The position numbers and the translations under genes are program-made. The notes beneath the pieces were generated by a model. The model made no database searches. It saw only the letters and a program-made list of their open reading frames with translations, and was not told the origin of the DNA. DNA of 54,755 bases, counting the filler, from Tortispora ganteri (lineage: Eukaryota): assembly GCA_003707115.1 (NCBI GenBank). It is 3 parts of 3 records of this genome, joined end to end, with 100 filler letters (N's around TTAATTAATTAA, not from the genome) between each part and the next. Parts side by side here need not be neighbours in the genome. Positions count along the whole stretch, not along the records: positions 42,070 to 54,755 come from PPNB01000049.1; 2 more parts are not named here. One strand, given 5' to 3'. This document shows, piece after piece, positions 8,988 through 54,755 of the stretch; position 1 is the first letter of the stretch, and every line of letters starts with the position of its first letter.

Positions 8988-10325
8988 ATGTACAAACGCA
9001 TTGCTTTAGTGACAGTTCGACCACGCTGGACAGTGTTGACTGTTCCCAAAAAGACAATTAAACGATGTATATCGCAGAAAGCTTCTGGAGTCGAGAAGGA
9101 GCTTGTGTTTCCGGGCGCCGTCCGATCACAGTTCACTAATATGTTGCGATTCTATGATCCTACTACTGACAAAAGTATGGATACATACCGATGTGTCGAC
9201 CTTTCCGGATCTCCAATAGATCCAGAATATAACCCCGCAGATGATCCGTTTTTCTCGCAGGAAAAGGTCACAAAAATGTACAGAGATATGGTCACTATAT
9301 CGATCCTAGACACTATCATGTACGATGCCCAACGTCAGGGCAGACTCAGTTTTTATATGGTCAATGCCGGTGAGGAAGGTATAGCCGTCGGCTCTGCTGC
9401 AGCTCTTAGTGAGGACGATATTCTCTACTGCCAGTACCGTGAGGCTGGCGTTCTCCTTCACCGCGGTGTACCTCTCGACGAGATGATGAACCAACTCTAT
9501 GCCAACGAAGCTGACACTTCAGCCGGTCGCCAGATGCCTGTTCATTATCAAAGCCGCGAGCATAATATCCACCCGATTTCTTCTCCACTTGCGACCCAGA
9601 TCCCGCATGCTGCTGGCGCTGCTTATGCGCTCAAGATCGCAGGTAAAGAGGCCGCAAGTATCTGCTACTTCGGCGAAGGCGCGGCTTCTGAAGGCGACTT
9701 CCACTCCGCATTTAACATTGCTTCTACCCGCTCTTGCCCTGTTGTATTCATCTGTCGCAACAACGGCTACGCTATCAGCACGCCTACCCTTGAGCAGTAC
9801 CGCGGCGATGGCATTGCCAGTCGCGGTAAGGGCTACGGTATCGAGACTATCCGTGTAGATGGTAACGATATCTTTGCGGTTTATCGCGCCACCAAGGACG
9901 CACGCAAGATTGCTATTGAAGAACAACGACCTGTGCTTATCGAAACAATGTCTTACCGTGTATCACACCATTCCACTTCCGATGACTCGTTCGCCTACCG
10001 CGCCAAAACAGAGGTAGAAGACTGGAAACGTCGCGACAACCCTATTTCTAGACTCAGAAAGTGGATGACTAACCAGGGGTACTGGAACGACGCAATAGAT
10101 GCCGATACACGGGTCGAGCTGCGAAAAGAGGTTCTGAAATCTTTTTCGAAAGCTGAGAAACTGAAAAAGCCAGAAATAAGTCTGCTTTTTGAAGACGTGT
10201 ATGACGAACTTCCGCTGAACCTCAAGGAACAGCGTGAAGAACTTGCCGAAATCCTCGATACATACCCTGAGAACTACCCATTGTCCGTTTTTAAGAACGG
10301 AAGGGAAGGTTTGGGTGATCAATAA
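8988..10325 (+). CDS. Branched-chain 2-oxoacid dehydrogenase E1 alpha subunit, mitochondrial
   Basis: AQRQGRLSFYM, QYREAG, GRQMPVHY, ISSPLATQIPHAAG, FGEGAASEGDFH (TPP binding), YRVSHHSTSDDS. ATG 8988 follows an A-rich leader and starts a basic presequence. Confidence 0.93.
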   Translation: MYKRIALVTVRPRWTVLTVPKKTIKRCISQKASGVEKELVFPGAVRSQFTNMLRFYDPTTDKSMDTYRCVDLSGSPIDPEYNPADDPFFSQEKVTKMYRDMVTISILDTIMYDAQRQGRLSFYMVNAGEEGIAVGSAAALSEDDILYCQYREAGVLLHRGVPLDEMMNQLYANEADTSAGRQMPVHYQSREHNIHPISSPLATQIPHAAGAAYALKIAGKEAASICYFGEGAASEGDFHSAFNIASTRSCPVVFICRNNGYAISTPTLEQYRGDGIASRGKGYGIETIRVDGNDIFAVYRATKDARKIAIEEQRPVLIETMSYRVSHHSTSDDSFAYRAKTEVEDWKRRDNPISRLRKWMTNQGYWNDAIDADTRVELRKEVLKSFSKAEKLKKPEISLLFEDVYDELPLNLKEQREELAEILDTYPENYPLSVFKNGREGLGDQ

Positions 10326-10476
10326 GCACATGTATGCATACATACACGTATACTGTACATATATATGCGCAGATGCATAGATCCATAGGGAAGTACAGTG
10401 TGAGTTGCACCTTTTTTTGACGTTTATACATAACATAATAAACTGCTATTTTTGGACGTCAGGTTTATTGTAGAAG

Positions 10477-11364
10477 ATGCCGCAAAAGGACAAAAAGAAA
10501 AAAAAGGAGGATCAGGAAGCAGAGAAGAAGAGCGTCAGCGGTTTTGAGTCTCAAATAGGTGCTAGCAGCATCAACACTTCATCTTACAAGACTAAAACTA
10601 AAGTAAAACCGTACAAGGGCCCAGAAGAAGAAGCGAGACCTGTAGGATTAGGTCCTCTTGTAAGTAGCGGTCCAAGAGAGACAGACGAGTTGGCCATTAA
10701 TGAGGACGATTATGAGCGCCCATACTTGGCATACGGTCATATATCTACGGCCAACCTTTTAGGTACGCCTATAGAGCGACCGGACAATAGTAATCCTAAC
10801 CGTCCAGCAGATGAAAGACCATTAGCGACTATTTATGGGTTCGAATACTGCTCTACTGGGCAGGATCTGTACATTGAGATGATTCAGAACTATGATCTTG
10901 CATGGGAAGACAGACCACATACGGCTGCTAGCAGTTTTGATTGGAAAACGCGTCAATACAAGGATTTTGAAGAGCCACAGAGACGTCCCAGGATCAATCT
11001 TGACAGTACCGGTCCCGAGAGAACAAAGACTAGAGGAAGAAGGAAGAGCAGACAGAAAGGCAAAGGCAAGGATGTAGACGCCGAGAAGTCTAACAGACCA
11101 GATAAAGAGAATCCAAGTAAGAAACATAATAAACTTCAGAGTTCTACTGATCAGCCAGAAAACGATACTAAGCTGTTGTCTCAGAATAAGCCAGTGCGTT
11201 CAAGATCAGACGGGCAAATGAATCCAGATCAAGATCAAAGAGAACAAGATAAACAATCAGCCACAAATCAGAAACCTATAATGCCTTTCATACCAGGATC
11301 TAAATCAGTCAAGTGTCATAAAAAGTCTAAACCCATCAAGTCAAAGAGATCCAATCAAACTTAG
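10477..11364 (+). CDS. DUF2406-like protein with basic low-complexity tail
   Basis: GTPIERPDNSNPNRPADERPLATIYGFE resembles the DUF2406 motif PD-SNPTR-R-ERPLDTIR-FE. Confidence 0.6.
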   Translation: MPQKDKKKKKEDQEAEKKSVSGFESQIGASSINTSSYKTKTKVKPYKGPEEEARPVGLGPLVSSGPRETDELAINEDDYERPYLAYGHISTANLLGTPIERPDNSNPNRPADERPLATIYGFEYCSTGQDLYIEMIQNYDLAWEDRPHTAASSFDWKTRQYKDFEEPQRRPRINLDSTGPERTKTRGRRKSRQKGKGKDVDAEKSNRPDKENPSKKHNKLQSSTDQPENDTKLLSQNKPVRSRSDGQMNPDQDQREQDKQSATNQKPIMPFIPGSKSVKCHKKSKPIKSKRSNQT

Positions 11365-11658: not shown

Positions 11659-12528
11659 ATGGACGATCGATCTGTGCGGTATGCCACGGCTGCAGATATT
11701 GTGCGGAGCCACCAAAAAGATGAGTACTACGAGAAGATTTTTATGGACTTAGTGCGGGATGCATTGGAGGCAGTGATGGGCCCACGCAAGGCGCGTATGT
11801 ATGCGCCCCGGTCAGACAACCTGTCTTCGTTGATGTACTACACACTAACTATCCTAGTGGGATCAAAAACGCTAGGAGAAGAGTACACGGATATATTTAG
11901 AGTAGCACAGCTTGGTGCGAAGCAGATCTGTCTGTTTGGCCCTGTGCGGCGGGTATTGCTGCTATTCATAAAGGCATGCGGACCACTTTACGAAACTCAG
12001 ATTAAATATGTTCTGAAAGACCGGCTCTCTGAAGTCGTTGTTGAGATTTTGCAGGAAATCCCCGCAATTCATCTTGCATTGTTTTATTTATTTGAGAAGT
12101 ATTACAGAATCTCAGAGAGAATTGTGGGACTTAGGTACTTGTCTGTGAAGGATGAACAGCCGTCTACAGCTGGGTACGAGGTCCTTGGTGGTATAATCGC
12201 CACCCGACTGTTCCTGTCGTTTGGAGCCAAGATAAAACATATTATTATCAGTGGTAAACAAAGCACCGGTCAGAGTCCCGGCCATTTACCGGCGGCTAAG
12301 TCAGGTGCCATCAACCTTTCTGACCCTAGCGTCTTAAGTCATATATTTACTGACGACACTTCACGAAAGTGCACGCTGTGTCTGTCGTATCTCGTGGATC
12401 CGTCAGTCGCACTGTGCGGACACGTATTTTGCTGGTCCTGCATAACCGAATGGTGCCAAGAACGGCCAGAGTGCCCGCTTTGTCGTCAGACTACCCGTGA
12501 ACAGAATATCCTTCCTATCAAGTCATGA
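11659..12528 (+). CDS. PEX10: Peroxin 10, peroxisomal RING E3 ligase
   Basis: A..ADIVRSHQKD, TLGEEY, HLALFY, C-terminal C3HC4 RING (CTLCL...CGHVFCWSCI...CPLCR). Confidence 0.95.
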   Translation: MDDRSVRYATAADIVRSHQKDEYYEKIFMDLVRDALEAVMGPRKARMYAPRSDNLSSLMYYTLTILVGSKTLGEEYTDIFRVAQLGAKQICLFGPVRRVLLLFIKACGPLYETQIKYVLKDRLSEVVVEILQEIPAIHLALFYLFEKYYRISERIVGLRYLSVKDEQPSTAGYEVLGGIIATRLFLSFGAKIKHIIISGKQSTGQSPGHLPAAKSGAINLSDPSVLSHIFTDDTSRKCTLCLSYLVDPSVALCGHVFCWSCITEWCQERPECPLCRQTTREQNILPIKS

Positions 12529-12621
12529 CAATCGTATAGTTAGTATTGGATGTCGTGAACAGAACGTCCTTCTTATCAAGTCATGACAATCGTATAGTTA
12601 GTATTTGGATGTCGTGAACAG
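12496..12621. repeat. 58-bp tandem duplication of the PEX10/HEL2 3'-end junction
   Basis: Unit CGTGAACAGAA..CCTTC.TATCAAGTCATGACAATCGTATAGTTAGTATT(T)GGATGT starts at 12496 and 12554; a third CGTGAACAG lies at 12613-12621. Confidence 0.9.
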
Positions 12622-39795: not shown

Positions 39796-41142
39796 TTATG
39801 ATGAAAACGCTCCAGTGAAAGATTCATTTGCATTATGTGTAGTAGACGAACTAGATGAAGAGCCTTTGGCCTTATCTGACTTCGATTTGCCCTCTTTGGA
39901 TTTGGATTTCTTCTTGTCTTTAGTAGTAGCCTCAGCTATGAGTGCTTCGAAAACGCGCACTTCTTCGTCTTCTTCAGCAGTTCTTACTGTTTTACTAAAC
40001 ACATCGCCTACCAAAATCATTGCCCGTGCTCTCTCAACACGTTTGGATAAAGGAACGGATTTGTCATGCAAAACTTTGTCGCAGACTTCGCGCAGAACGC
40101 CTGCTACTTCAAATCTAGAACCTCTCCATGCGGCATTCAATATCTTTCCAAGTACTATTCTTTCTTGCTCGGCACGCAATTCATCAGTCCAATCCTCGCC
40201 GGCCTTTTCTTCAGCTTTTGCCATGGCTTCCATACTTGCTTGTGCATCAATGGCGCTATTAATAGTTCCCCATGTGTCTTTTGCAACAGATCCTTTCTCC
40301 TTTACTTTACTAAAAAAACCTGATATTCCAAGAAACTTCTGTGACTTCAAAAACGTGGTACCTTTAGTTGTGTAGATAGAGCCAATAGTGTGTAGGAGCT
40401 CTAGACCAAAAGATTCCATTTTCAGGTTTTCAGCCTCTAAGCGCTGCTTTTCAAGGAACGCCTTTGTGATATCGTCAGACTTGTCGGTTTCTGTCCACAC
40501 AGACAAGCGTTCTATGAGTTTCTTACATAGATCAGCGACGCGCTGGTTTCTAGCCTCTCTGCGCTGTTCCTCGTACTTTTTGAGCTCGGCCTTCTGGTCC
40601 TTTGAGAAACCAGATTTCTTGATCTTGTCCGACTTTTCTTTTATTTCATCAGGTGATGCTTGAGCAAGGTTTGATGAGGAGGTACCAGGAGTGTAGGCGG
40701 TGACATCTGTTCCGCTTGCTGTGTTTGAGGCGTTCTGCTCGAAAGAGGACACGTTCGGGTCGGAGGACTCTGCGGCTGAGTCTTCCATAGATACAATCTC
40801 CATAGTTTTCGTCAAATCTTTAATTAGAGAAAGCTCACCTATGAGATCTGCGAAGGCTTCTCCTCCGAAGATCATCGTGAAGAACTCTGTTGGATCCTCG
40901 AAACCAGCTTCAGGTATAGCCTGCTGTTTACCAAATTGATCATACTTCTGACGCAATTGAGGGTCACTAAGTACCTGATAGGCTTCTCCAATTGCCTGGA
41001 ATCTATCTTTTGCTGCAGGATCATCGGGGTTCTTATCTGGATGATGTATAACGGCCTGGCGGCGATATGCCTTCTTTATTTCAATGTCAGAAGCAGTGAC
41101 TTCTACGCCAAGTATTTCATAGTATTCCGTTTCTACAACCAT
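39796..41142 (-). CDS. DJP1: J-domain co-chaperone with DnaJ-X domain (Djp1/Caj1 family)
   Basis: [51 protein letters not shown]. Confidence 0.88.
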
Positions 41143-41492
41143 TTCTTAGTTCGAATACGCCTATGAGAAGAAAATCGAAGGAAAAGAAGGTATTTATTAG
41201 GAAACTTGCAGACTCTAAAGAGTACACTGTTGGATAATATGACGTGTAAAGGGTGTGGCCATTTAGAGTGATAGGTACATGGTAAATGCAGAACCGATAT
41301 AGTCTCTGAGTTACGCTAAAACCTGAATTGTTATACTGAACAATATGAACTGGCATTCTTGAACGGATTTCGTTATAATGATAATAAAATATAAATATTG
41401 ATACTGTAACTACTTATTTCTGTTTACCGCAAGTTGATAGTGTTCTTAGCTCGTCGCTATAAAGACTTGAACTATCATTAGCTAGACGTTCT

Positions 41493-41969
41493 TCATTCCG
41501 AGTCATCGTAGCCGTACAATTCGTTAGTCGATTCCATGCTTATCTTCACCTGTTCCGGAAACATTAAATTATTAATTACATCATAGACAAAAACTGCCCG
41601 TAGCGGATAGTAAAAACCTATAATGCCGGTAAAAGAATTTATGGCCCTGTAAGTTGTACCTGGAGTTACTGTTAACGCATTACTATGCACGTTGATCTCT
41701 CCATATTTTCCTGCTTCGTCAATATCTTTACACGAAGCTGCCGCGGTTCCATATACCACGTCGATAAACATCTTGTAGCGAGTCCGCGCTGCGATCGTAA
41801 TAGTATACCTCTCTCGCGCGCTTTTAGCGAATTGACCATAGAATGTAACCTCCATCGCAGTAACATTGCGCCTAACTTCACCTGGACTAGGAGGACCTTG
41901 ATTGAGTGATGAAATATAATGATTTATAATGGCGCTATTACTAAGGTATTCGATATTGAGGAATGGCAC
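41493..41969 (-). CDS. 3' fragment of a protein ending in a divergent PA14/GLEYA-like lectin domain (truncated by contig end)
   Basis: Open from the gap to TGA. EVTFYGQF...YTITI...AAASC...GFYYPLRAVF resembles GLEYA/PA14 (GYF...G.YTF...G.YYP.R.V). Confidence 0.5.
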   Translation of the reverse strand: MPFLNIEYLSNSAIINHYISSLNQGPPSPGEVRRNVTAMEVTFYGQFAKSARERYTITIAARTRYKMFIDVVYGTAAASCKDIDEAGKYGEINVHSNALTVTPGTTYRAINSFTGIIGFYYPLRAVFVYDVINNLMFPEQVKISMESTNELYGYDDSE

Positions 41970-42069
41970 NNNNNNNNNNNNNNNNNNNNNNNNNNNNNNN
42001 NNNNNNNNNNNNNTTAATTAATTAANNNNNNNNNNNNNNNNNNNNNNNNNNNNNNNNNNNNNNNNNNNN
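41970..42069. other. Artificial contig linker (44 N + TTAATTAATTAA + 44 N)
   Basis: Identical to the spacer at 22082-22181. Confidence 0.97.
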
Positions 42070-42800
42070 ACCTCCGTCACTGCATTGCCATGAGATATGA
42101 GAGACGATATTCTTTTGGTTATAACCAATTTCCAGGCCAACATCGCTGGACCCGCTCAAACCGACACTCCAACTGATTCTCGAGCTGAAAGTTGCAGTCA
42201 AACTGGTACTTGAACTACCAGGGTGGAGCTCGGTCGCACTCGCAGCTGCACTCATTTTTTATCCTCGCCTGCCGATACTTCTAGCACCAAAGACATCCCA
42301 GCATGACCGACCAATATCTCGCCACCTTATTGCTTGCGGCTGCTCGGCACAACAACTACACGTACAGGCGTACACCTAGACACCACCCTGATCATCGTTC
42401 CCCGTAAACCATTCGCTCAGTCCCGATCGCTTCGATCTTCCCGCAAGTCATCCCAATTTTCCCGAGGAACATGTCCGCACCGCCCCTGATCGCCGTGATT
42501 GTGCCGTCCCCGACATAGCACATCACCTCAACCAGTCCACACCGCCTTCCGCAGCGATCCCATCGCCCGTCACTTCTGGAGCCGGAGCTACTTCCGGCCC
42601 GGCCCTCTACTAGCCTGCCGCAATTGCCTCGAAATTACCGTCGAAGACGTCGTGGCCTACTGCACACACGCCCTCGCTGTACGACGACCGGGAAGCGCGC
42701 ACTGACAGAGCGCTGTCCGCCGTTGCCACGTACTGCTGGCAGTTCCACCCGCTGACCGTTACAAGGTCGGCCCCACACTTTTGTCGAACGCAGTAACCAC
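42070..42800 (+). mobile_element. Decayed Ty3/gypsy pol relic (RNase H to integrase zinc finger)
   Basis: Collinear, frameshifted motifs: DPLKP..TDS (42172), IFYPRL, HDR-QYLA...ARH (42302), PDHRS (42387), RFDL...RRD (42428), AFRSDP (42544), SYFRPG (42586), DVVAYC (42646), G-FHPLTV (42743). GC-rich relative to the flanks. Confidence 0.6.
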
Positions 42801-43359
42801 CCCGACGTGCTAGCAAGTACTCGTCCATAAACCGTCGTCGTTTCCACCGGCGGCTCGCTTAAAACGTCTTCACTTACGTTACATTGCTCATGATGTTGTC
42901 GGTTAGTAAGTCTCATTGCCAGCGAATACGCTGCTAGTCTCAGCGAGTCGGACTAAGTTGCCCGACTCCAACCGAGCCAAAATGTAAACAATCGGCTCAC
43001 CTAGCTACCACGCTAAAAACCTGTACCAATACCAACAGTTATATTAGCACCAATTAAACTACTATTATTAGCGTTAAGTTAATAATCGATCTCAATTGCT
43101 AAACCATACTCGCCACTTGGATATGTCTCATAAATAGAATGACTATTTGGGAATACACCATTTTCCTGTGCTCTATTACAATCCCTGCATTCTGCCCACT
43201 CGTTCTGGCAACAAAATCTATAACCTGCCAGTCTCTGCTTTAATTGTTTTTTGGTCCGCTAGCACTGCTAACGTATTCCAATCGCAATACAATTGCAACG
43301 TTGAAGCTTGACTCAGGTTTGTTTGCGGAACAAAACCTTCAAGTTCTATGTTTGAAGCC

Positions 43360-43520
43360 TTACGTCCCTTTAAGTTCGTTAGCAGTGCCAAAAATTCTTC
43401 TAAAGGGAGGTGATTTGCATGTTTGCATAAATTACTACTCCTTTTATTAGAATCAACTGTGATTCTTGATCCGCATGTGTATTCAATCTCTACCTGCGAA
43501 TCACTCGAATTGTTGTAATA
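43360..43520 (+). mobile_element. Possible second, highly decayed Ty3/gypsy reverse transcriptase fragment
   Basis: PLSSLAVPKILLKGGDLHVCINY resembles PS.SP...P.L...K.G.LR.CIDY; then, frameshifted, STVILD...LELL. Confidence 0.3.
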
Positions 43521-44529
43521 GGAACCGCGAGTATCGTTTCAGTTATATTAACAGATGAACAGACCTATTGAACAACCTGCCCATCGTTTCGGTTTAGTGA
43601 TTGCTGTGCATGTCTGCCGATTGCAGAACAATTAGCCGATGTTTACCGACAAGCAAGACTTTTTTCCGTTATACGCACTCTACTCTTGCTATAATTGGTT
43701 ATACGACTGCTATTTTTATGAGACTCAGGAACTGAGTCTGCTTATCGTAGTTAGTTACGCAATATCGATATGCGTACCCGGTGCTATAAGGTGTACCGTA
43801 CGCTCTGTCCATGTGCGGCGCGGACTCTACGGGTCATTTGTGTAATTATGACTCAAGAGTGGACCAATGACAGAGAACGAGCTAGAAAAGTTATCTATCG
43901 CTCAAGCGGGAATAATCTTCTTGCGCTACTAGCTCCTAAGTTCGATAGCAATCATTGCTGTATCAGGTATTATTAGAGTTTGATATACTTTTTATCTACG
44001 CGGAGCTGAAATTTTCTGTGCAGCTGCATATAGGTGATACATCGCGAGTTAGCGGTTTTAATGGAGACTGATAACTTCAGAGACAATGACTCTACAAAGG
44101 GAGGTTGTTATTGTGCCCAGAATTAATGAAGAAATGGACTGACTAGGGGCATAGTGATATTGCGCTGTATGTCAGTGATTACGGGGCAAAAGTCACACAT
44201 GACTACTTCGTAACCAAATTTACCTAATTGGCTTTAATGGCAAGCCAATTGCTCGAATGAGTTTGTTTTTTGGCAAGTCTCCAGGCGCCGGCGGTTATAA
44301 ATTGTTCGAATAGCAAAGCAAACGGAACAATCGCGTGATTAGAGTTTCCATTTACAGTTTTGGAGAATATGATATTTCCTATTCAGGACAAAATGCCGTC
44401 AGTTCTATTTAAGAACACAGGCGATTGATTTTTTGCTATGCATCTATTTCATAGGTCCTGCAGTTGCCGCAATTATATAAATATGGCGGCCTTGGTATGC
44501 TTGAAGGATATTTCCTCAGATTCACCGCT

Positions 44530-48165: not shown

Positions 48166-49914
48166 ATGCCCACTTTATCAGAGAGCCAAATCAACGGTAC
48201 AGGGCCCAAGCCTGTGGTCCCACAGCTGAACGAATACTACAAAGAACTCCTCAGTAGCGGGAAGCCCCTCTTCAAGATCCCCGATCGATATCAGAAAGAA
48301 GCGCGTCCTTACAGGGTTATTTGTATTGGAGCTGGTGCATCTGGAATACTGCTAGCGTATCAGTTCCAGTACCATATGCCGGACGTGGAGTATTGCGCAT
48401 ATGAGAAGAATCCTGACATCACTGGTACTTGGTATGAAAACACGTACCCCGGTTGCGCCTGCGATATTCCAACACATGCATACCAGTTTTCATTTGCTCC
48501 TGAGCCAAACATGAAAAAATACTACTCAGACGGCCCTGAACTGTCGTTGTACATGAAGTCAGTCGCGAAGAAGTTTGGGCTGATGAAATACTTCAAAGTC
48601 AACCATGCGGTCGAGCGCTGCGAGTGGAACGCCGAGGAAGGGAAATGGCACGTTACCATTAACAACGATGGAAACATTATTACAGACACCTGCGATGTTC
48701 TGATTAATGGTTCTGGAGTACTAAACAAATGGAAGTGGCCTGATATTCCGGGCCTAAATGATTACGAGGGTGCATTGATGCACAGCGCACACTGGGACTC
48801 AAGTTTCGACTATACTGACAAGACTGTTGCTGTTATTGGAGGCGGGTCTTCTGGTGTGCAGATAGTTCCTGCTATTGAGAAAGACGTTAAGCACATGTAT
48901 GTGTTTCTGAGGTCGCCAGTGTTCATTGCTGGAGTGTTCGGAGCCAAACACGCTGGACCTAACGGATCAAACTTCGAGTACACTGAGGACCAGAAAAAAT
49001 TCTTTCGAGACCACCCTGAAGAGCACAAGGCTTACACCAAGGCTATCCATCAAGAGCTCTATAGGAGGTTCAGGTGGTTGATGATTGACAGCAAGGAGCA
49101 GCAGGAAGCATTCGATACCGCCAGAAAAGATATGTGGGAGAAACTGAAAAGCAAACCAGAACTTGCCGAAAAACTTATTCCGGATTTCTCTTTTGGATGC
49201 CGAAGACTCACTCCTGGAAACGGATACCTTGAAGCCCTTGTCAAAGAGCATGTTGAGCCAACATTTGATCATATTGACAGATTCACCTCCAAAGGGATCC
49301 GTACTGTCTCAGGAAAGGAGTACGAAGTGGACGCTATCATGTGTGCCACAGGGTTTGACACCTCTTTCAGACCCAGGTTTGATATCATTGGCAACAATGG
49401 TGTGAATCTCAGAGATAAATGGGACGGCAAGACGTCCGACGGATACCTTGGAGTAGCAGTGGACGAGTTTCCTAACTACTTCACTGTGCTTGGACCCAAC
49501 AGTCCTGTAGGACACGGCTCTCTAATTCCAATCATGGAACAGGTGTCTAAGTATATTCTGAGAGCTGTGCACAAGATGCGCACTTCTACAATCAAAAGCA
49601 TGGTCCCTAAGCATGAAGCTGTGGAAGACTTCAAAGAGTTTGCTGAGTCTTACATGACTCGAACTGCATGGGCAGGAACATGTTCTAGCTGGTTTAAAGG
49701 TGGTAAGAAAGATGGACCGGTGCGTGCGATGTGGCCAGGAAGCGGTAACAGTTTCATGGAAGCAATCGACGAAGTCAGATGGGAGGACTATGATTATACT
49801 TACGAGTTTAAGAATCGTTTTGCATACATTGGCAGTGGCTTTACTAAGCGAGAATTGGAAGGCGGCGACCTTTCATGGTTTATTAACGAACCGCACAGGC
49901 TTACTTTGAATTAA
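48166..49914 (+). CDS. Flavin-dependent monooxygenase, Baeyer-Villiger (class B) type
   Basis: GAGASG, GTWYENTYPGCACDIP, fingerprint YEGALMHSAHWD, GGGSSG, ATGF, CSSWFK. Likely ATG 48166 (an upstream in-frame ATG lies at 48103). Confidence 0.9.
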   Translation: MPTLSESQINGTGPKPVVPQLNEYYKELLSSGKPLFKIPDRYQKEARPYRVICIGAGASGILLAYQFQYHMPDVEYCAYEKNPDITGTWYENTYPGCACDIPTHAYQFSFAPEPNMKKYYSDGPELSLYMKSVAKKFGLMKYFKVNHAVERCEWNAEEGKWHVTINNDGNIITDTCDVLINGSGVLNKWKWPDIPGLNDYEGALMHSAHWDSSFDYTDKTVAVIGGGSSGVQIVPAIEKDVKHMYVFLRSPVFIAGVFGAKHAGPNGSNFEYTEDQKKFFRDHPEEHKAYTKAIHQELYRRFRWLMIDSKEQQEAFDTARKDMWEKLKSKPELAEKLIPDFSFGCRRLTPGNGYLEALVKEHVEPTFDHIDRFTSKGIRTVSGKEYEVDAIMCATGFDTSFRPRFDIIGNNGVNLRDKWDGKTSDGYLGVAVDEFPNYFTVLGPNSPVGHGSLIPIMEQVSKYILRAVHKMRTSTIKSMVPKHEAVEDFKEFAESYMTRTAWAGTCSSWFKGGKKDGPVRAMWPGSGNSFMEAIDEVRWEDYDYTYEFKNRFAYIGSGFTKRELEGGDLSWFINEPHRLTLN

Positions 49915-50991: not shown

Positions 50992-52764
50992 TTACCTAGC
51001 AAAGTTGAAGCCTCTGCGTCCTTTTTTCTCTTCAGCTGGGGAAGCCGTTAACCTACCTGACTCAAGACGAGCTTTCCTTTCTTCCAATTCTTTTCGTTGA
51101 ACGTTGAGTTCATCACGCATAGCCTGATGCCTTTTGAAAAGCTCTTGCTCAGACATGCGCAGCTTCTCTTCTTTCTCACGCACTTTAGTTTGGAAAACAA
51201 CCCGCATATCTTGTTCCATTTTAGCCAATTTAGCTTTGTGCTGATTGCGCTCTTCTTCCAATCTTTGAGCAGGATTAATCTCACGGAACACAGTTTCATC
51301 TTGCTTGTGTCCTAATGCCGTTAATTTTTCTGTGCGGTAAGATTCATAAAGCTCTCTATTAGTTTTCTCACGCAGCGATTCCATATGCTGGCCTATCAAC
51401 AAGTCACGCAAACTAAGAAAATCACAATGCGAAGGATTCTCAATTTCAACCACACCCCAAGGGTATGATCGACCGAGTACCTTGGTGCCGTCTGGTCGAG
51501 CAACTTCTGTGGTGGAACCGATAATAGCAAGAGGGTATACGCTTAATAATCGTTTCAATGACTGAGCAGCATTTTCGTCGTTAGAGTAGAGTGCAGGTTC
51601 AAATATCTTGATTCCGTGATATTCAATATCAGCACGAATCCTTTCCTTAAACACCTGAAGCTCTTCCGGAGAGAACAAGTCAGATTTAGCAATTACCGGG
51701 ATAAGATTAACGCGGTGATGAATTTGGCGCATAGTTTCAATTTCTATAGCTTTCAATGAATGTCCAGTGGGTTCAATGAAGAACAGGCATGCATGAATAT
51801 TGGTATCCAATATGCGTCCGCGATTGGCTTTAGCATCTGCATCCAAACGACTGTCGAACTGGTGCTCAATGAAATTTAAAATAGGGCGCCACGATTCGCG
51901 ATTGTTAAGAGATTCACCGTAGTTGACAGCATCAACGACAGTTAGGCTAAGCTTGACGCCGTTTTCTTCAATATCAGCTGAAGTAGAGCGCATCTCGATA
52001 GCGGGGTTGGGATCAAACGCCATATCGCGATCGTCTTCCAATGAACACACTTCTTGTCTGAAAAGGGTATTAATCAGTGTAGACTTTCCTACACCCGGTG
52101 TACCGACAACCATTACGTTAAGGGTGAAACCCTCACGAGCAGTTCTACGGTGCCATTGGTTTGGCAAATTAGCAAAACCGACGTATCCGGTAATTTGTCG
52201 TTTGATAACATGAGAGGGGAAAGAAGATGCGGCAGGAGATGTAGCTTGAGAAGGAGAGGCAGGCTCTGTATCGCCTACAGTAACAGCAGATTCCTCAGGG
52301 TCAGACCCGGGAGACACTACAGCGGGGGCTTCGCTTCTTATAACAGATTCTTCCACAACTATTGCAGATTCTACTGTCATCTCAGGAGAAGCTGGTGCTA
52401 AAAAGAGATGTTAGCATAACTGGGTTTAAGGTAATAACCAAAACATGCGACAAAAGTGCGAGAAAGTTGAACATGAGAGGGTTTCAAAATGCCAGGGGTA
52501 ATGCCCGTGTCGTGTTTAGTAAGAGCAGGTGACTCTGATGCGCTTCGAAGACCACAAAAATGTAAATTAATAAATAGAGCAGTCAATTAAAAATTTACAG
52601 CCACATACGCAATCAAATGTATTAAAGGGAAGTATACTTGCGTGTGAATTACTTCGTGAAGTGGACAGTAACCCCCTTTAACTGCAGAGTCCTGAGCGCA
52701 TTTGAGGATCAATGGGTCTTACGTAAAGCACATTATATAGCACAAATGTATACTTACTAGACAT
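50992..52764 (-). CDS. CDC3: Septin Cdc3; probably 2 exons
   Basis: TGYVGFANLPNQWHRR, AKSD, GRSYPWG, HCDF, C-terminal coiled coil. Proposed exon 1 52764-52758 (ATGTCTA), intron 52757-52398 (GTAAGT...TGCTAAC...TAG), giving MSTPASPEMTVES; an in-frame ATG also lies at 52380. Confidence 0.88.
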
Positions 52765-52859
52765 ATTGAAACAAATAAATCCAAATACAGAAAGAAAAAA
52801 TCACTCGAAGTGTACACTGATACACTATTTCACGCTTTAAGTGGAAAGAAAAGGTGAAA

Positions 52860-54755
52860 TCAGAAGGTTCTAGTATTGATGGTTGAGTGCGCGTGTTTCG
52901 TGCACTTTTTCAATCGTCCAAATCCAGACAAGTTGTAGGTATTGCTATGACAACAAGCAACAAATAAAAATCGAGCGACGTTATGTTGTCTGCTTTGACC
53001 ACAAGACCGTTAATAATAGATATCTCTGCTTCAGTAATTTTCGGCCTGGTAGATTATGCCATATTGGCTTGGTTGTACCTAACCCCGAACAGCCGCTGAT
53101 TGAGGGCGTGTAATATCACTTCCGCAAAGTAGGCATACCCGTCTTTGGGCCGTCTACCACCCTTGCTCAGATGGAAAGCTCGAAAACGTTCTTGAAGGAC
53201 TTCATGGCGCGTCACAATATCCCTGCAGCTGCGTATGCGGACATGTCTAATTTGACGCCACGATCGTCTAACTTAACTCTGTTGACCATCATGTCGTAAT
53301 AAAAACCGCTAGGGTTGCATAGGCCAAAGGAGTATAGATCCCCGAATCAAAGCAGGAAATCGTCGAGACGCTGCAGCTTATCATGTTACAGAATGAGTTT
53401 GGTTCCGTAGGATCAAAAGTAGATATCCAAGAGTACCATGAAGGCGATGAAATGAGCATACTAGTCATATCTGAAGAATACACTGTCCTCAACTAGTCTC
53501 TCGCGCAATCTCACAAGTGCGCTCTCGACGGCGACAAGGGCCTTAACAGCGGCGGAATGGGCGCGTATACTCCTGCTCCAATTGGAACGCCGGATCTCAT
53601 TCAGCACATCAGACATACTGTATTGAAAATTACCATTGACGGCATGCGTCATGAGGGTTTTCCTACGATGGGAATGCAATTTGTCGGCATCATGCTCACC
53701 ACCTCTGGACTCAAAAGTCCTCGAATACAATGTACGGTTTGGCATCCAGAAACCCAGGTGCACCTTCTTCTCTTGTAATCGGATCTATGCCAGATTTTGC
53801 TTACCTGCGCCACCCATACACTCGACGCCTTAAAGTTTCGTATCCTTTCTGGGTTACAGCACAGTAGTCATGACAGTTGATAGATATCCGGGATCTTACA
53901 GAAAAGAAGACATTATTTCCATCGTTGTCACATTAACTTTCGCCAATGGCACCAAAATATTTCACGCAAGAACCTATCTTAAAAGCCGCAACTAAATGGT
54001 CACTCACAGAAGTCGCGTAATTGCCACTTCAGCCGTATCAGATGCATTAGAAGGTACAGTTACCTCTGCATATAAGGTTTGGATGCTGTCTCGTTTGAAG
54101 ACGAATACAACAGAACCGATATTCCATATCGTGCATTTTGCCATGTTCACAAAGCACCTGAAGGATTCACTTACGCTGTTTCTTGTTCCTGTAACAAGAG
54201 AAGCGAGCACATAGAAAAAAAGCCATCGTGAATCCACAAAAAGACTTGACCCAATTTCGGTCGCTGCAACCGATGGTGTAGGGTCTGAGTTCATGCTCGC
54301 ATACAGCTATGAACAAGCACAGCACCGTTGGAATTGATCTCGTGGCCATGAATGTGAATGACCTTGTATTGCAGGGAGCTGAGCTTTGATGTTTTTGGAT
54401 TACTTTGCTTGCTCTAAATTAGACATTCAAATAGCTCGTGACTTTGTTTTTGGAGTTGCTGAGGGCTGTAAAATGGCAGGATGCGCTTTAGTAGGTGGTG
54501 AAACATCAGAAATGCCTGGATTATATCATGGGGATGACTATGACACTAATGGAACTGCTATTGGTGCAGTATCCAAAGACGCGATTCTGCCGCGATTGGA
54601 CGCTATGAAAGCCGGTGACGTTCTACTAGGTCTTGGATCGGATGGCGTACATTCTAATGGATTCTCATTAGTGCGAAAAATTGTGGAAAGATCAGGACTC
54701 TCTTACACATCGGCGGCTCCGTTTGACCCTACAAAGCTGCTGGGAGACGTGCTGT
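52860..54755 (+). pseudogene. ADE5,7: Pseudogene of bifunctional GARS-AIRS (purine de novo synthesis); runs off the window end
   Basis: GARS motifs LVVPNPEQPL, GIPVFGPS, KDFMARHNIP, DGDKGLNSGGMGAY, VLEYNVRFG are broken by stops (53111, 53320, 53335, 53494, 53776) and frameshifts. AIRS motifs [40 protein letters not shown] follow. The 5' boundary is approximate. Confidence 0.93.

What the first reader, a model, noticed from the sequence alone, without database searches (positions are those of the whole stretch)
52860..54390. Pseudogenised ADE5,7, a core purine-biosynthesis gene
Seen: the GARS half has at least five in-frame stops, several frameshifts and substitutions in conserved motifs (GPE to NPE, GLAAGKGV to RVA*AKGV). 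The AIRS N-terminus lacks the GGFGGLFDL segment. The relic sits head-to-head about 100 bp from the CDC3 start, like a native locus. Established: Ade5,7 performs steps 2 and 5 of de novo purine synthesis and its loss causes purine auxotrophy. Inference: either a natural purine-auxotrophic yeast, or the function moved to a duplicate or a horizontally acquired replacement.
Basis: partly seen in the sequence, partly recalled or inferred. Interest (0 to 1): 0.7.

Follow-up and report, generated by a model that had tools for sequence, protein, structure and literature searches.

The report
Dead ADE5,7 copy beside CDC3
This is a real, heavily broken copy of a yeast purine-synthesis gene, but the same yeast carries a second copy that looks whole, so it is most likely a dead duplicate and not a sign that the yeast needs purines.

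Summary
Aligned to the intact 781-aa Ade5,7 of Tortispora caseinolytica (P0001), window 52887-54754 shows 8 in-frame stops, 9 frameshifts and 36 lost codons, including GGFGGLFDL. The window comes from a close relative of that yeast: a neighbouring gene is 98% identical in protein.

The auxotrophy reading is not supported. Contigs from a run of the same organism (X2) reproduce the relic exactly. They also hold a second ADE5,7 copy on an 11-kb contig without CDC3. That copy is 81-84% identical in DNA to the relic. Its spacing, 1343 nt, is exactly what an unbroken frame needs, and it reads the P0001 residue at 19 of 20 listed codons.

From 54302 onward the two copies merge into one shared contig of 995 nt. 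In that tract the window is 93% identical in protein to P0001 and carries a single lesion. This points to recent gene conversion from the working copy. Three related organisms also keep their intact-like copy away from CDC3, and two of them hold 4-5 variants of the 3' part.

Still open: the 1-base deletion at 54384 is in the only X2 contig covering that place, and which locus is ancestral is unknown. Overall an ordinary mosaic pseudogene of modest interest.

The parts
50992..52764 (-). CDC3-type septin gene, head-to-head neighbour of the relic. Exon 2 is 50992-52397, the putative intron is 52398-52757 and the 7-nt exon 1 is 52758-52764.
   Evidence: Pfam Septin E 7e-98. The best yeast chain among solved structures is Cdc3, ahead of Cdc12, Cdc10, Cdc11 and Shs1. 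The intron (GTAAGT ... TGCTAAC ... TAG) and the ATG were read by eye and are inferred.
52861..53018 (+). The stretch where the first 46 codons of ADE5,7 would lie by spacing. No demonstrable similarity is left, so it is either a fully decayed 5' end or plain intergenic DNA beside a 5'-truncated copy.
   Evidence: 5 of 46 residues are identical. The alignment score is 4, against 9.9 +/- 4.3 in 30 shuffles. The CDC3-side contigs of organisms B, C and D still align here, up to 52931-52954.
53019..54301 (+). Old, decayed part of the relic, covering GARS (P0001 residues 47-430) and the start of AIRS. It holds 7 stops, 8 frameshifts and 32 lost codons.
   Evidence: Protein identity to P0001 is 44-76% by segment. 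DNA differences from the same organism's second copy are 31/191, 41/245 and 45/240. Amino-acid changes fall almost wholly on the window lineage, 73 against 4.
54302..54755 (+). Young 3' tract of the relic (AIRS, P0001 residues 503-653). It is identical to the sequence that the second copy runs into and is cut by the window end.
   Evidence: 141 of 151 residues match P0001 and there are no stops. X2 contigs 1 and 2 both end at 54331, and contig 3 (995 nt) starts at 54302 with 0 differences and runs 541 nt past the window. Changes are symmetrical, 4 against 2.
54383..54385 (+). One-base deletion, the only lesion inside the young tract. It turns ...GAEPLMFLDY... into a frameshift.
   Evidence: frameshift at 54384. 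In one search table 4, organisms B, C and D have a C or T put in here. No X2 contig has it (0 of depth 202.2).

Best explanation
The stretch is a non-functional relic of the bifunctional purine gene ADE5,7 (GAR synthetase plus AIR synthetase) in a Tortispora yeast closely related to T. caseinolytica. The working gene lies elsewhere in the same genome. The relic is a mosaic of three parts. No similarity is left where the first 46 codons would be. Next comes a body of about 1.3 kb (53019-54301) that has drifted without selection, differing by about 16-19% in DNA from the working copy and carrying stops, frameshifts and deletions. From 54302 onward there is a 3' tract that was recently overwritten from the working copy by gene conversion and has since gained one 1-base deletion.

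Shown: the lesions, the second copy, the point where the two copies merge, and the one-sided pattern of amino-acid change. Inferred: that the second copy is intact along its whole length, that conversion ran from the working gene to the relic, and that the deletion at 54384 is confined to the relic. Unresolved: whether the CDC3-side locus is the ancestral site or the landing place of a 5'-truncated duplicate.
For: (1) Lesions. There are 8 stops, 9 frameshifts and 36 lost codons. The Logan contigs of run X2, from the same organism, match window 51800-54331 and 54302-54755 with 0 differences.

(2) Second copy in the same organism. X2 contig 2 (11,064 nt) aligns to 53063-54331 in four collinear pieces with 31/191, 41/245, 45/240 and 3/63 differences. 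Its span, 9722-11064, is 1343 nt, which equals 3x(512-65)+2, the length P0001 predicts. Piece by piece it is +1, -1, +3, +1, +71 and -1 nt relative to the window. That cancels each window frameshift and deletion between 53249 and 54302 (my arithmetic). Its 30 loose letters before 53063 read ALVDFATKND by eye, against ALVEFATKND in P0001. It has 9.7 kb upstream with no match to CDC3.

(3) At the 20 codons touched by the 22 listed second-copy letters, the second copy gives the P0001 residue in 19 and the window in 7. This includes Glu in place of the stop at 53111.

(4) Relaxed constraint. At columns where at least 5 of 8 outgroup yeasts agree, residues 65-502 show P0001 keeping the outgroup state 73 times, the window 4 times and neither 21 times. 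Residues 503-653 show 2, 4 and 1.

(5) The close relative T. caseinolytica has an intact 781-aa Ade5,7 (P0001). It also has another decayed ADE5,7-derived model (P0006, 380 aa, on another scaffold), so such relics coexist with a working gene in this lineage.

(6) In organisms B, C and D the contig with the intact-like copy (20, 115 and 74 kb) does not cover CDC3. The CDC3 contigs run on for 241-370 nt past 52931-52954 and then stop.
Against: The second copy was seen only through alignment tables. 739 nt of it lay on the window, and its start, its first 54 codons and its 3' third were not read.

The 22 letters used are the 'best supported' rows of a table with 447 more rows not shown, so they are biased towards sites where all the other copies agree.

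No X2 contig carries the extra base at 54383/54384. As far as the contigs show, every copy in this organism has the frameshift. My explanation is that the contig builder drops the less covered arm of a small bubble. That rests on the tool's warning that contigs drop variants and on my recall of the assembler's rules.

X2 may be the very sample the window was assembled from, so it is not independent.

In all four runs the contig with the intact-like copy has lower mean depth than the CDC3 contig (79 against 146, 190 against 293, 94 against 293, 62 against 170). I cannot explain this.
Confidence: 0.8

Rival explanations
1. True loss of function. The 1-base deletion at 54384 sits in the tract shared by both copies, perhaps because the relic converted the working gene. 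The organism then has no working AIR synthetase and lives on salvaged purines.
For: In one search the only X2 contig over 54302-54755 has the deletion (0 of depth 202.2 with the inserted base). Both 5' contigs flow into it.
Against: The depth of the shared contig (202.2) lies below the sum of the two feeding contigs (225.3). That leaves room for words specific to one copy, that is, for dropped variants. The tool states that contigs show presence, not absence. All three related organisms have the base. The tract shows a pattern of change typical of a working gene. These yeasts are routinely grown on defined media (recalled, not checked here).
Confidence: 0.07
2. The CDC3-side copy is the ancestral ADE5,7 locus, and the working gene is a later duplicate that took over. 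This would be gene relocation by duplication and loss of the parent.
For: The head-to-head position is close to CDC3. The spacing fits a full-length 5' end starting at about 52861-52887. The CDC3-side sequence up to 52931-52954 is shared with organisms B, C and D, so the arrangement is older than their split.
Against: The first 46 codons score no better than shuffles, which a 5'-truncated secondary copy would explain equally well. No outgroup synteny could be fetched. This rival concerns origin only and is compatible with the best explanation.
Confidence: 0.4
3. The well-kept 3' part is a separate working gene for an AIRS-only protein, kept by selection.
For: There is an open frame of 124 codons to the window end, 93% identical to P0001, with Pfam AIRS and AIRS_C hits. 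T. caseinolytica has a 380-aa AIRS-only gene model (P0006).
Against: The frame opens only after the frameshift at 54384. It therefore lacks the first half of the AIRS N-domain, including the deleted GGFGG segment and the ATDGVG stretch that lies in another frame. Its high identity is explained by the merge with the second copy in the contig graph. P0006 itself has substitutions and an 8-residue gap in conserved stretches.
Confidence: 0.04
4. Assembly or consensus error in an intact gene.
For: None beyond the fact that the window ends inside a repeated tract.
Against: An independent re-assembly (Logan contigs of X2) reproduces every base of 51800-54755. Twenty-six per cent amino-acid divergence plus 17 disabling lesions is far beyond any error rate. 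The intact-like sequence exists as a separate contig.
Confidence: 0.01

Closest known systems
Tortispora caseinolytica NRRL Y-17796 Ade5,7 (CANCADRAFT_92625; P0001, 781 aa)
   Same: It is the closest intact relative and is collinear with the relic over residues 47-653. Identity is 74% over residues 65-330 and 94% over 503-653. It has the same GARS_N/A/C + AIRS + AIRS_C order.
   Different: P0001 is an unbroken ORF. The window copy has 8 stops, 9 frameshifts, 36 lost codons and no start codon.
Tortispora caseinolytica CANCADRAFT_4459 (P0006, 380 aa, annotated as a protein)
   Same: It is another ADE5,7-derived sequence of the same lineage that has lost the GARS half. It carries changes in conserved AIRS stretches (GRFGG, VDGETSE, an 8-residue gap) and is 81% identical to P0001 over residues 503-653.
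   Different: It lies on another scaffold (2.61 Mb, against the 3.12 Mb scaffold that holds the neighbour-gene orthologue). It keeps the GGFGG segment that the window lacks and does not share the window's deletions, so it is a separate copy.
Fungal bifunctional GARS-AIRS (S. cerevisiae ADE5,7, S. pombe ade1; solved GARS and AIRS domains 7LVO/7LVP)
   Same: The ancestral gene type. P0001 matches 7lvo_A (E 2e-152) and 7lvp_A (E 1e-105).
   Different: The window copy cannot encode either enzyme.
Gene relics in budding yeasts and pseudogene/gene pairs that exchange sequence by gene conversion (for example human CYP21A1P/CYP21A2). Both are recalled, not looked up.
   Same: A decayed paralogue stays in place and shares a recently homogenised tract with its working partner.
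   Different: Here the direction of transfer is inferred, not shown. No disease or phenotype is known.

Membership tests
Working ADE5,7 (bifunctional GARS-AIRS) gene | One uninterrupted reading frame with a start codon | tested here: not met
   8 stops, 9 frameshifts and GTG at the aligned start.
Working ADE5,7 (bifunctional GARS-AIRS) gene | Domain series GARS_N, GARS_A, GARS_C, AIRS, AIRS_C | tested here: inconclusive
   Fragments hit GARS_A, GARS_C, AIRS and AIRS_C in the right order, but only as pieces. Only 2 of the 9 fragments tested (93 aa and 124 aa) reach Pfam's cut-off. GARS_N is not found.
Working ADE5,7 (bifunctional GARS-AIRS) gene | Conserved motifs of the ATP-grasp and AIRS N-domain (GLAAGKGV, GGFGGLFDL) intact | tested here: not met
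   The first reads RVA*AKGV and the second is deleted. That these are motifs is judged from their conservation in P0001, P0007 and P0016 and from recall.
Unprocessed pseudogene (dead paralogue) | Homology to a working gene along its length, with disabling lesions | tested here: met
Unprocessed pseudogene (dead paralogue) | Changes pile up on the pseudogene lineage (relaxed constraint) | tested here: met
   73 against 4 at outgroup-defined columns, residues 65-502.
Unprocessed pseudogene (dead paralogue) | An intact paralogue in the same genome | tested here: inconclusive
   A second copy with intact-gene spacing and 19 of 20 P0001-like codons is present in run X2. The whole ORF was not seen, and the site at 54384 is unresolved. 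No whole genome is held.
Gene-conversion tract | A sharp switch from diverged to identical sequence between the two copies | tested here: met
   Differences of 16-19% up to 54301. From 54302 both X2 contigs merge into one contig of 995 nt. Protein identity to P0001 jumps from 46% to 93%.
Gene-conversion tract | Direction from working gene to relic | tested here: inconclusive
   The symmetrical, low amino-acid change in the tract and the intact base at 54384 in organisms B, C and D favour it. Phased reads are needed.

The most novel reading that the evidence does not exclude
The frameshift at 54384 may lie in the tract shared by both ADE5,7 copies of this yeast because the dead copy overwrote the working one. 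The species would then be a natural purine auxotroph living on purines from its cactus-rot habitat. More broadly, Tortispora genomes may hold a dispersed family of at least 4 ADE5,7 3' fragments that keep exchanging sequence with the working gene and endanger it.
Probability: 0.08. Interest if true: 0.7.

Novelty: new member of a known kind. Interest (0 to 1): 0.27.

Why it matters
It removes a tempting false lead: a core purine gene that looks dead does not make this yeast an auxotroph. What remains is a tidy natural example, in one of the most compact yeast genomes, of a gene relic kept beside CDC3 across species. The relic is partly refreshed by gene conversion from its working partner, and further 3' fragments exist in relatives. 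This bears on yeast gene-loss surveys, which could miscount ADE5,7 as lost or duplicated. It also bears on annotation, since at least one such relic is deposited as a protein in a relative. It does not open a long-standing question.

Tried and rejected
No whole genome is held for this window, so I could not run a direct tblastn for ADE5,7, purD, purM or the other ADE genes.

Searches of earlier findings gave nothing that bears on this: by place in this genome and in relatives, by sequence and by words.

A protein search restricted to 68-217 aa found no further Tortispora ADE5,7 fragments among 292 hits. The best 120 were listed, and the top hit was 66% identical.

No RNA holder was listed among the sequencing runs, so nothing can be said about expression.

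RIP-like hypermutation was considered and dropped. GC stays at 0.41-0.48 over the relic. The substitution spectrum against the second copy is mixed: 60 transitions and 39 transversions, with 56 changes in which the relic has A/T against 31 the other way. That is an ordinary AT drift.

A horizontally acquired replacement was considered and dropped, because the nearest intact gene is a normal fungal fusion.

Parts of the relic with no cover in runs X3, X7 and X8 (53780-54076) only mean that nothing there was at least 80% alike.

Depth ratios were not used as copy numbers, following the tool's warning.

Literature: 'Tortispora' with 'pseudogene' gave 3 papers. I saw only the search listing, and none is about ADE genes. 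'Tortispora caseinolytica' with 'purine' gave 0 papers. 'Tortispora' alone gave 39 papers, of which 25 were listed. In PMC11449361 I read the passages found for Tortispora, purine, adenine and auxotroph. Purine and adenine occur 0 times there. The paper dates the T. caseinolytica/mauiana/ganteri ancestor to about 11 Mya. Its supplements were not read.

Full report
**What is there**

Three-frame translation of 52860-54755 and a stop-to-stop ORF list show pieces of a GARS-AIRS protein scattered over all three forward frames. A protein search with the last open frame (54383-54754, 124 aa) found, as best hit, the intact 781-aa Ade5,7 of Tortispora caseinolytica NRRL Y-17796 (P0001, 93% identical). 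It also found a 380-aa AIRS-only model from the same yeast (P0006, 76% identical).

tblastn of P0001 against the whole window hits only this place (E 7e-95 and 2e-93). A frameshift-aware alignment that I wrote lays P0001 residues 1-653 on 52887-54754. It counts:
- 8 in-frame stops
- 9 frameshifts
- 36 deleted codons and 1 inserted codon
- no ATG

Pfam puts the open fragments in GARS_A, GARS_C, AIRS and AIRS_C, in that order. The minus-strand neighbour is a septin (Pfam E 7e-98). Its best yeast match among solved structures is Cdc3. By eye it has a 7-nt first exon, a 360-nt intron and its ATG at 52764.

**Which organism**

A neighbouring flavin monooxygenase (48166-49911) is 98% identical to T. 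caseinolytica CANCADRAFT_70909, and the next hit is 52%. No protein encoded by the window itself appeared in the database. The window therefore comes from a very close relative of that strain and not from the strain itself. No whole genome is held.

**The relic is a mosaic**

Identity to P0001 by segment:

| P0001 residues | Identical | Percent |
|---|---|---|
| 1-46 | 5 of 46 | 11% |
| 47-64 | 8 of 18 | 44% |
| 65-127 | 48 of 63 | 76% |
| 128-281 | 105 of 154 | 68% |
| 282-330 | 36 of 49 | 73% |
| 331-402 | 43 of 72 | 60% |
| 403-502 (25 codons lost) | 46 of 100 | 46% |
| 503-653 (no stop) | 141 of 151 | 93% |

The first 46 codons score no better than shuffled sequence (4 against 9.9 +/- 4.3). 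Demonstrable homology therefore begins at 53019, which is 255 nt from the CDC3 start.

I also compared the window and P0001 at columns where at least 5 of 8 other yeasts agree. Over residues 65-502, P0001 keeps the common state 73 times, the window 4 times and neither 21 times. Nearly all change is on the window lineage, as expected for a sequence without selection. Over residues 503-653 the counts are 2, 4 and 1. That is symmetrical, as between two working orthologues.

**A second copy in the same organism**

One search for sequencing runs found two runs that hold the stretch completely (X1 and X2, organism A; either may be the source of the window). It also found runs of three related organisms with small shares. 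I laid Logan contigs of X2, X3, X7 and X8 on 51800-54755 at 80% likeness.

In X2, contig 1 (3457 nt) equals 51800-54331 and contig 3 (995 nt) equals 54302-54755, both with 0 differences. The lesions are therefore not an artefact of the window's assembly. This is not an independent sample, however.

Contig 2 (11,064 nt) is a second ADE5,7 copy. It has four collinear pieces on 53063-54331, with 31/191, 41/245, 45/240 and 3/63 differences. It has 9.7 kb upstream that does not match CDC3. Its loose 5' end reads ALVDFATKND by eye, against ALVEFATKND in P0001.

Its span between the ends of the alignment is 1343 nt, exactly 3x(512-65)+2, the length P0001 predicts. Its piece-by-piece length differences from the window are +1, -1, +3, +1, +71 and -1. 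These cancel every window frameshift and deletion between 53249 and 54302 (my arithmetic).

At the 20 codons touched by the 22 listed second-copy letters, it gives the P0001 residue in 19, including Glu for the stop at 53111. The window does so in 7. That list is a biased sample, because the table shows only its best-supported rows and hides 447 more.

**Gene conversion**

Contigs 1 and 2 of X2 both end at 54331, and contig 3 starts at 54302. Two paths merge into one. From 54302 the relic and the second copy are the same for at least 995 nt at the resolution of these contigs. Contig 3 has depth 202.2, against 146.1 and 79.2 for the two feeders.

This merge, the jump in identity and the symmetrical change pattern all point the same way. 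The 3' tract of the relic was recently overwritten from the working gene.

The single lesion in the tract is a 1-base deletion at 54384. Organisms B, C and D have a base there (C or T put in, table 4). No X2 contig has it. I take this to be a relic-specific change whose alternative was dropped when the contigs were built. The tool warns that contigs drop variants, and I recall that the builder removes the less covered arm of small bubbles. The depth of contig 3 below 225.3 leaves room for that. This point is not shown, and it is the main weakness of the case.

**Relatives**

In B, C and D the contig carrying the intact-like copy (20,426, 114,803 and 73,771 nt) does not cover CDC3. Depth over 51800-52888 equals that of the CDC3 contig alone. 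The CDC3 contigs align to the window up to 52931-52954, run on for 241-370 nt of unlike sequence, and stop. In D, the first letters of that run-on still resemble the window after 52954.

D has a second ADE5,7-like contig besides the one on its long contig. B and C show 4-5 different contigs per site over 54430-54755. The annotated P0006 of T. caseinolytica is one more decayed copy, with lesions different from the window's. A working gene away from CDC3, plus one or more relics, therefore seems to be the shared state of this group. The relic beside CDC3 most likely predates their split. That last step is inferred.

The relic differs from its own organism's second copy (16-19%) about as much as from B's copy (131/683, or 19%). 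This fits the same picture.

**What remains open**

- Whether the second copy is intact from start to stop.
- Whether the deletion at 54384 is confined to the relic.
- Which locus is ancestral.
- Why the contig with the intact-like copy has lower mean depth than the CDC3 contig in all four runs.
- Whether the relic is transcribed. No RNA holder was listed.

I found nothing in print on ADE5,7 relics in Tortispora.

**Verdict**

The auxotrophy inference is very probably wrong. This is a dead ADE5,7 paralogue partly refreshed by gene conversion, a new example of a well-known kind of feature.

Noticed in passing
window 41142-44497: A 3.3-kb stretch without any ATG ORF of 180 aa or more, in an otherwise tightly packed window. 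The 10 stop-to-stop fragments tested there had no Pfam hit. A GC-rich, C-skewed island (GC 0.56-0.61) lies at about 42200-43000. There is no Rfam family and no tRNA. It could be a non-coding RNA gene or another relic.
   Followed up: partly
window 51800-54755, runs X2, X3, X7, X8: In all four runs the contig carrying CDC3 has 1.5 to 3.1 times the mean word depth of the contig carrying the intact-like ADE5,7 copy (146.1 vs 79.2; 292.5 vs 189.5; 293.2 vs 94; 170.2 vs 61.5). The tool warns that depth is no copy number. This is unexplained.
   Followed up: no
window 54302-54755 as laid in runs X3 and X7: Two related organisms show 4-5 different contigs per site over the AIRS 3' part, and several over 54082-54123. 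This suggests a small dispersed family of ADE5,7 3' fragments.
   Followed up: partly
P0006 (T. caseinolytica CANCADRAFT_4459): It is deposited as a 380-aa protein but looks like a gene model threaded through a decayed ADE5,7 copy. It has substitutions in conserved AIRS stretches, an 8-residue gap and no GARS half.
   Followed up: partly
window 52398-52764: The CDC3-type septin gene appears to start with a 7-nt exon followed by a 360-nt intron (GTAAGT ... TGCTAAC ... TAG). This was read by eye only.
   Followed up: no
window 12496-12605: Two tandem copies of a 52-nt unit (94% alike, spacing 58) span the end of the ORF 11659-12528 and the gap before the next gene.
   Followed up: no
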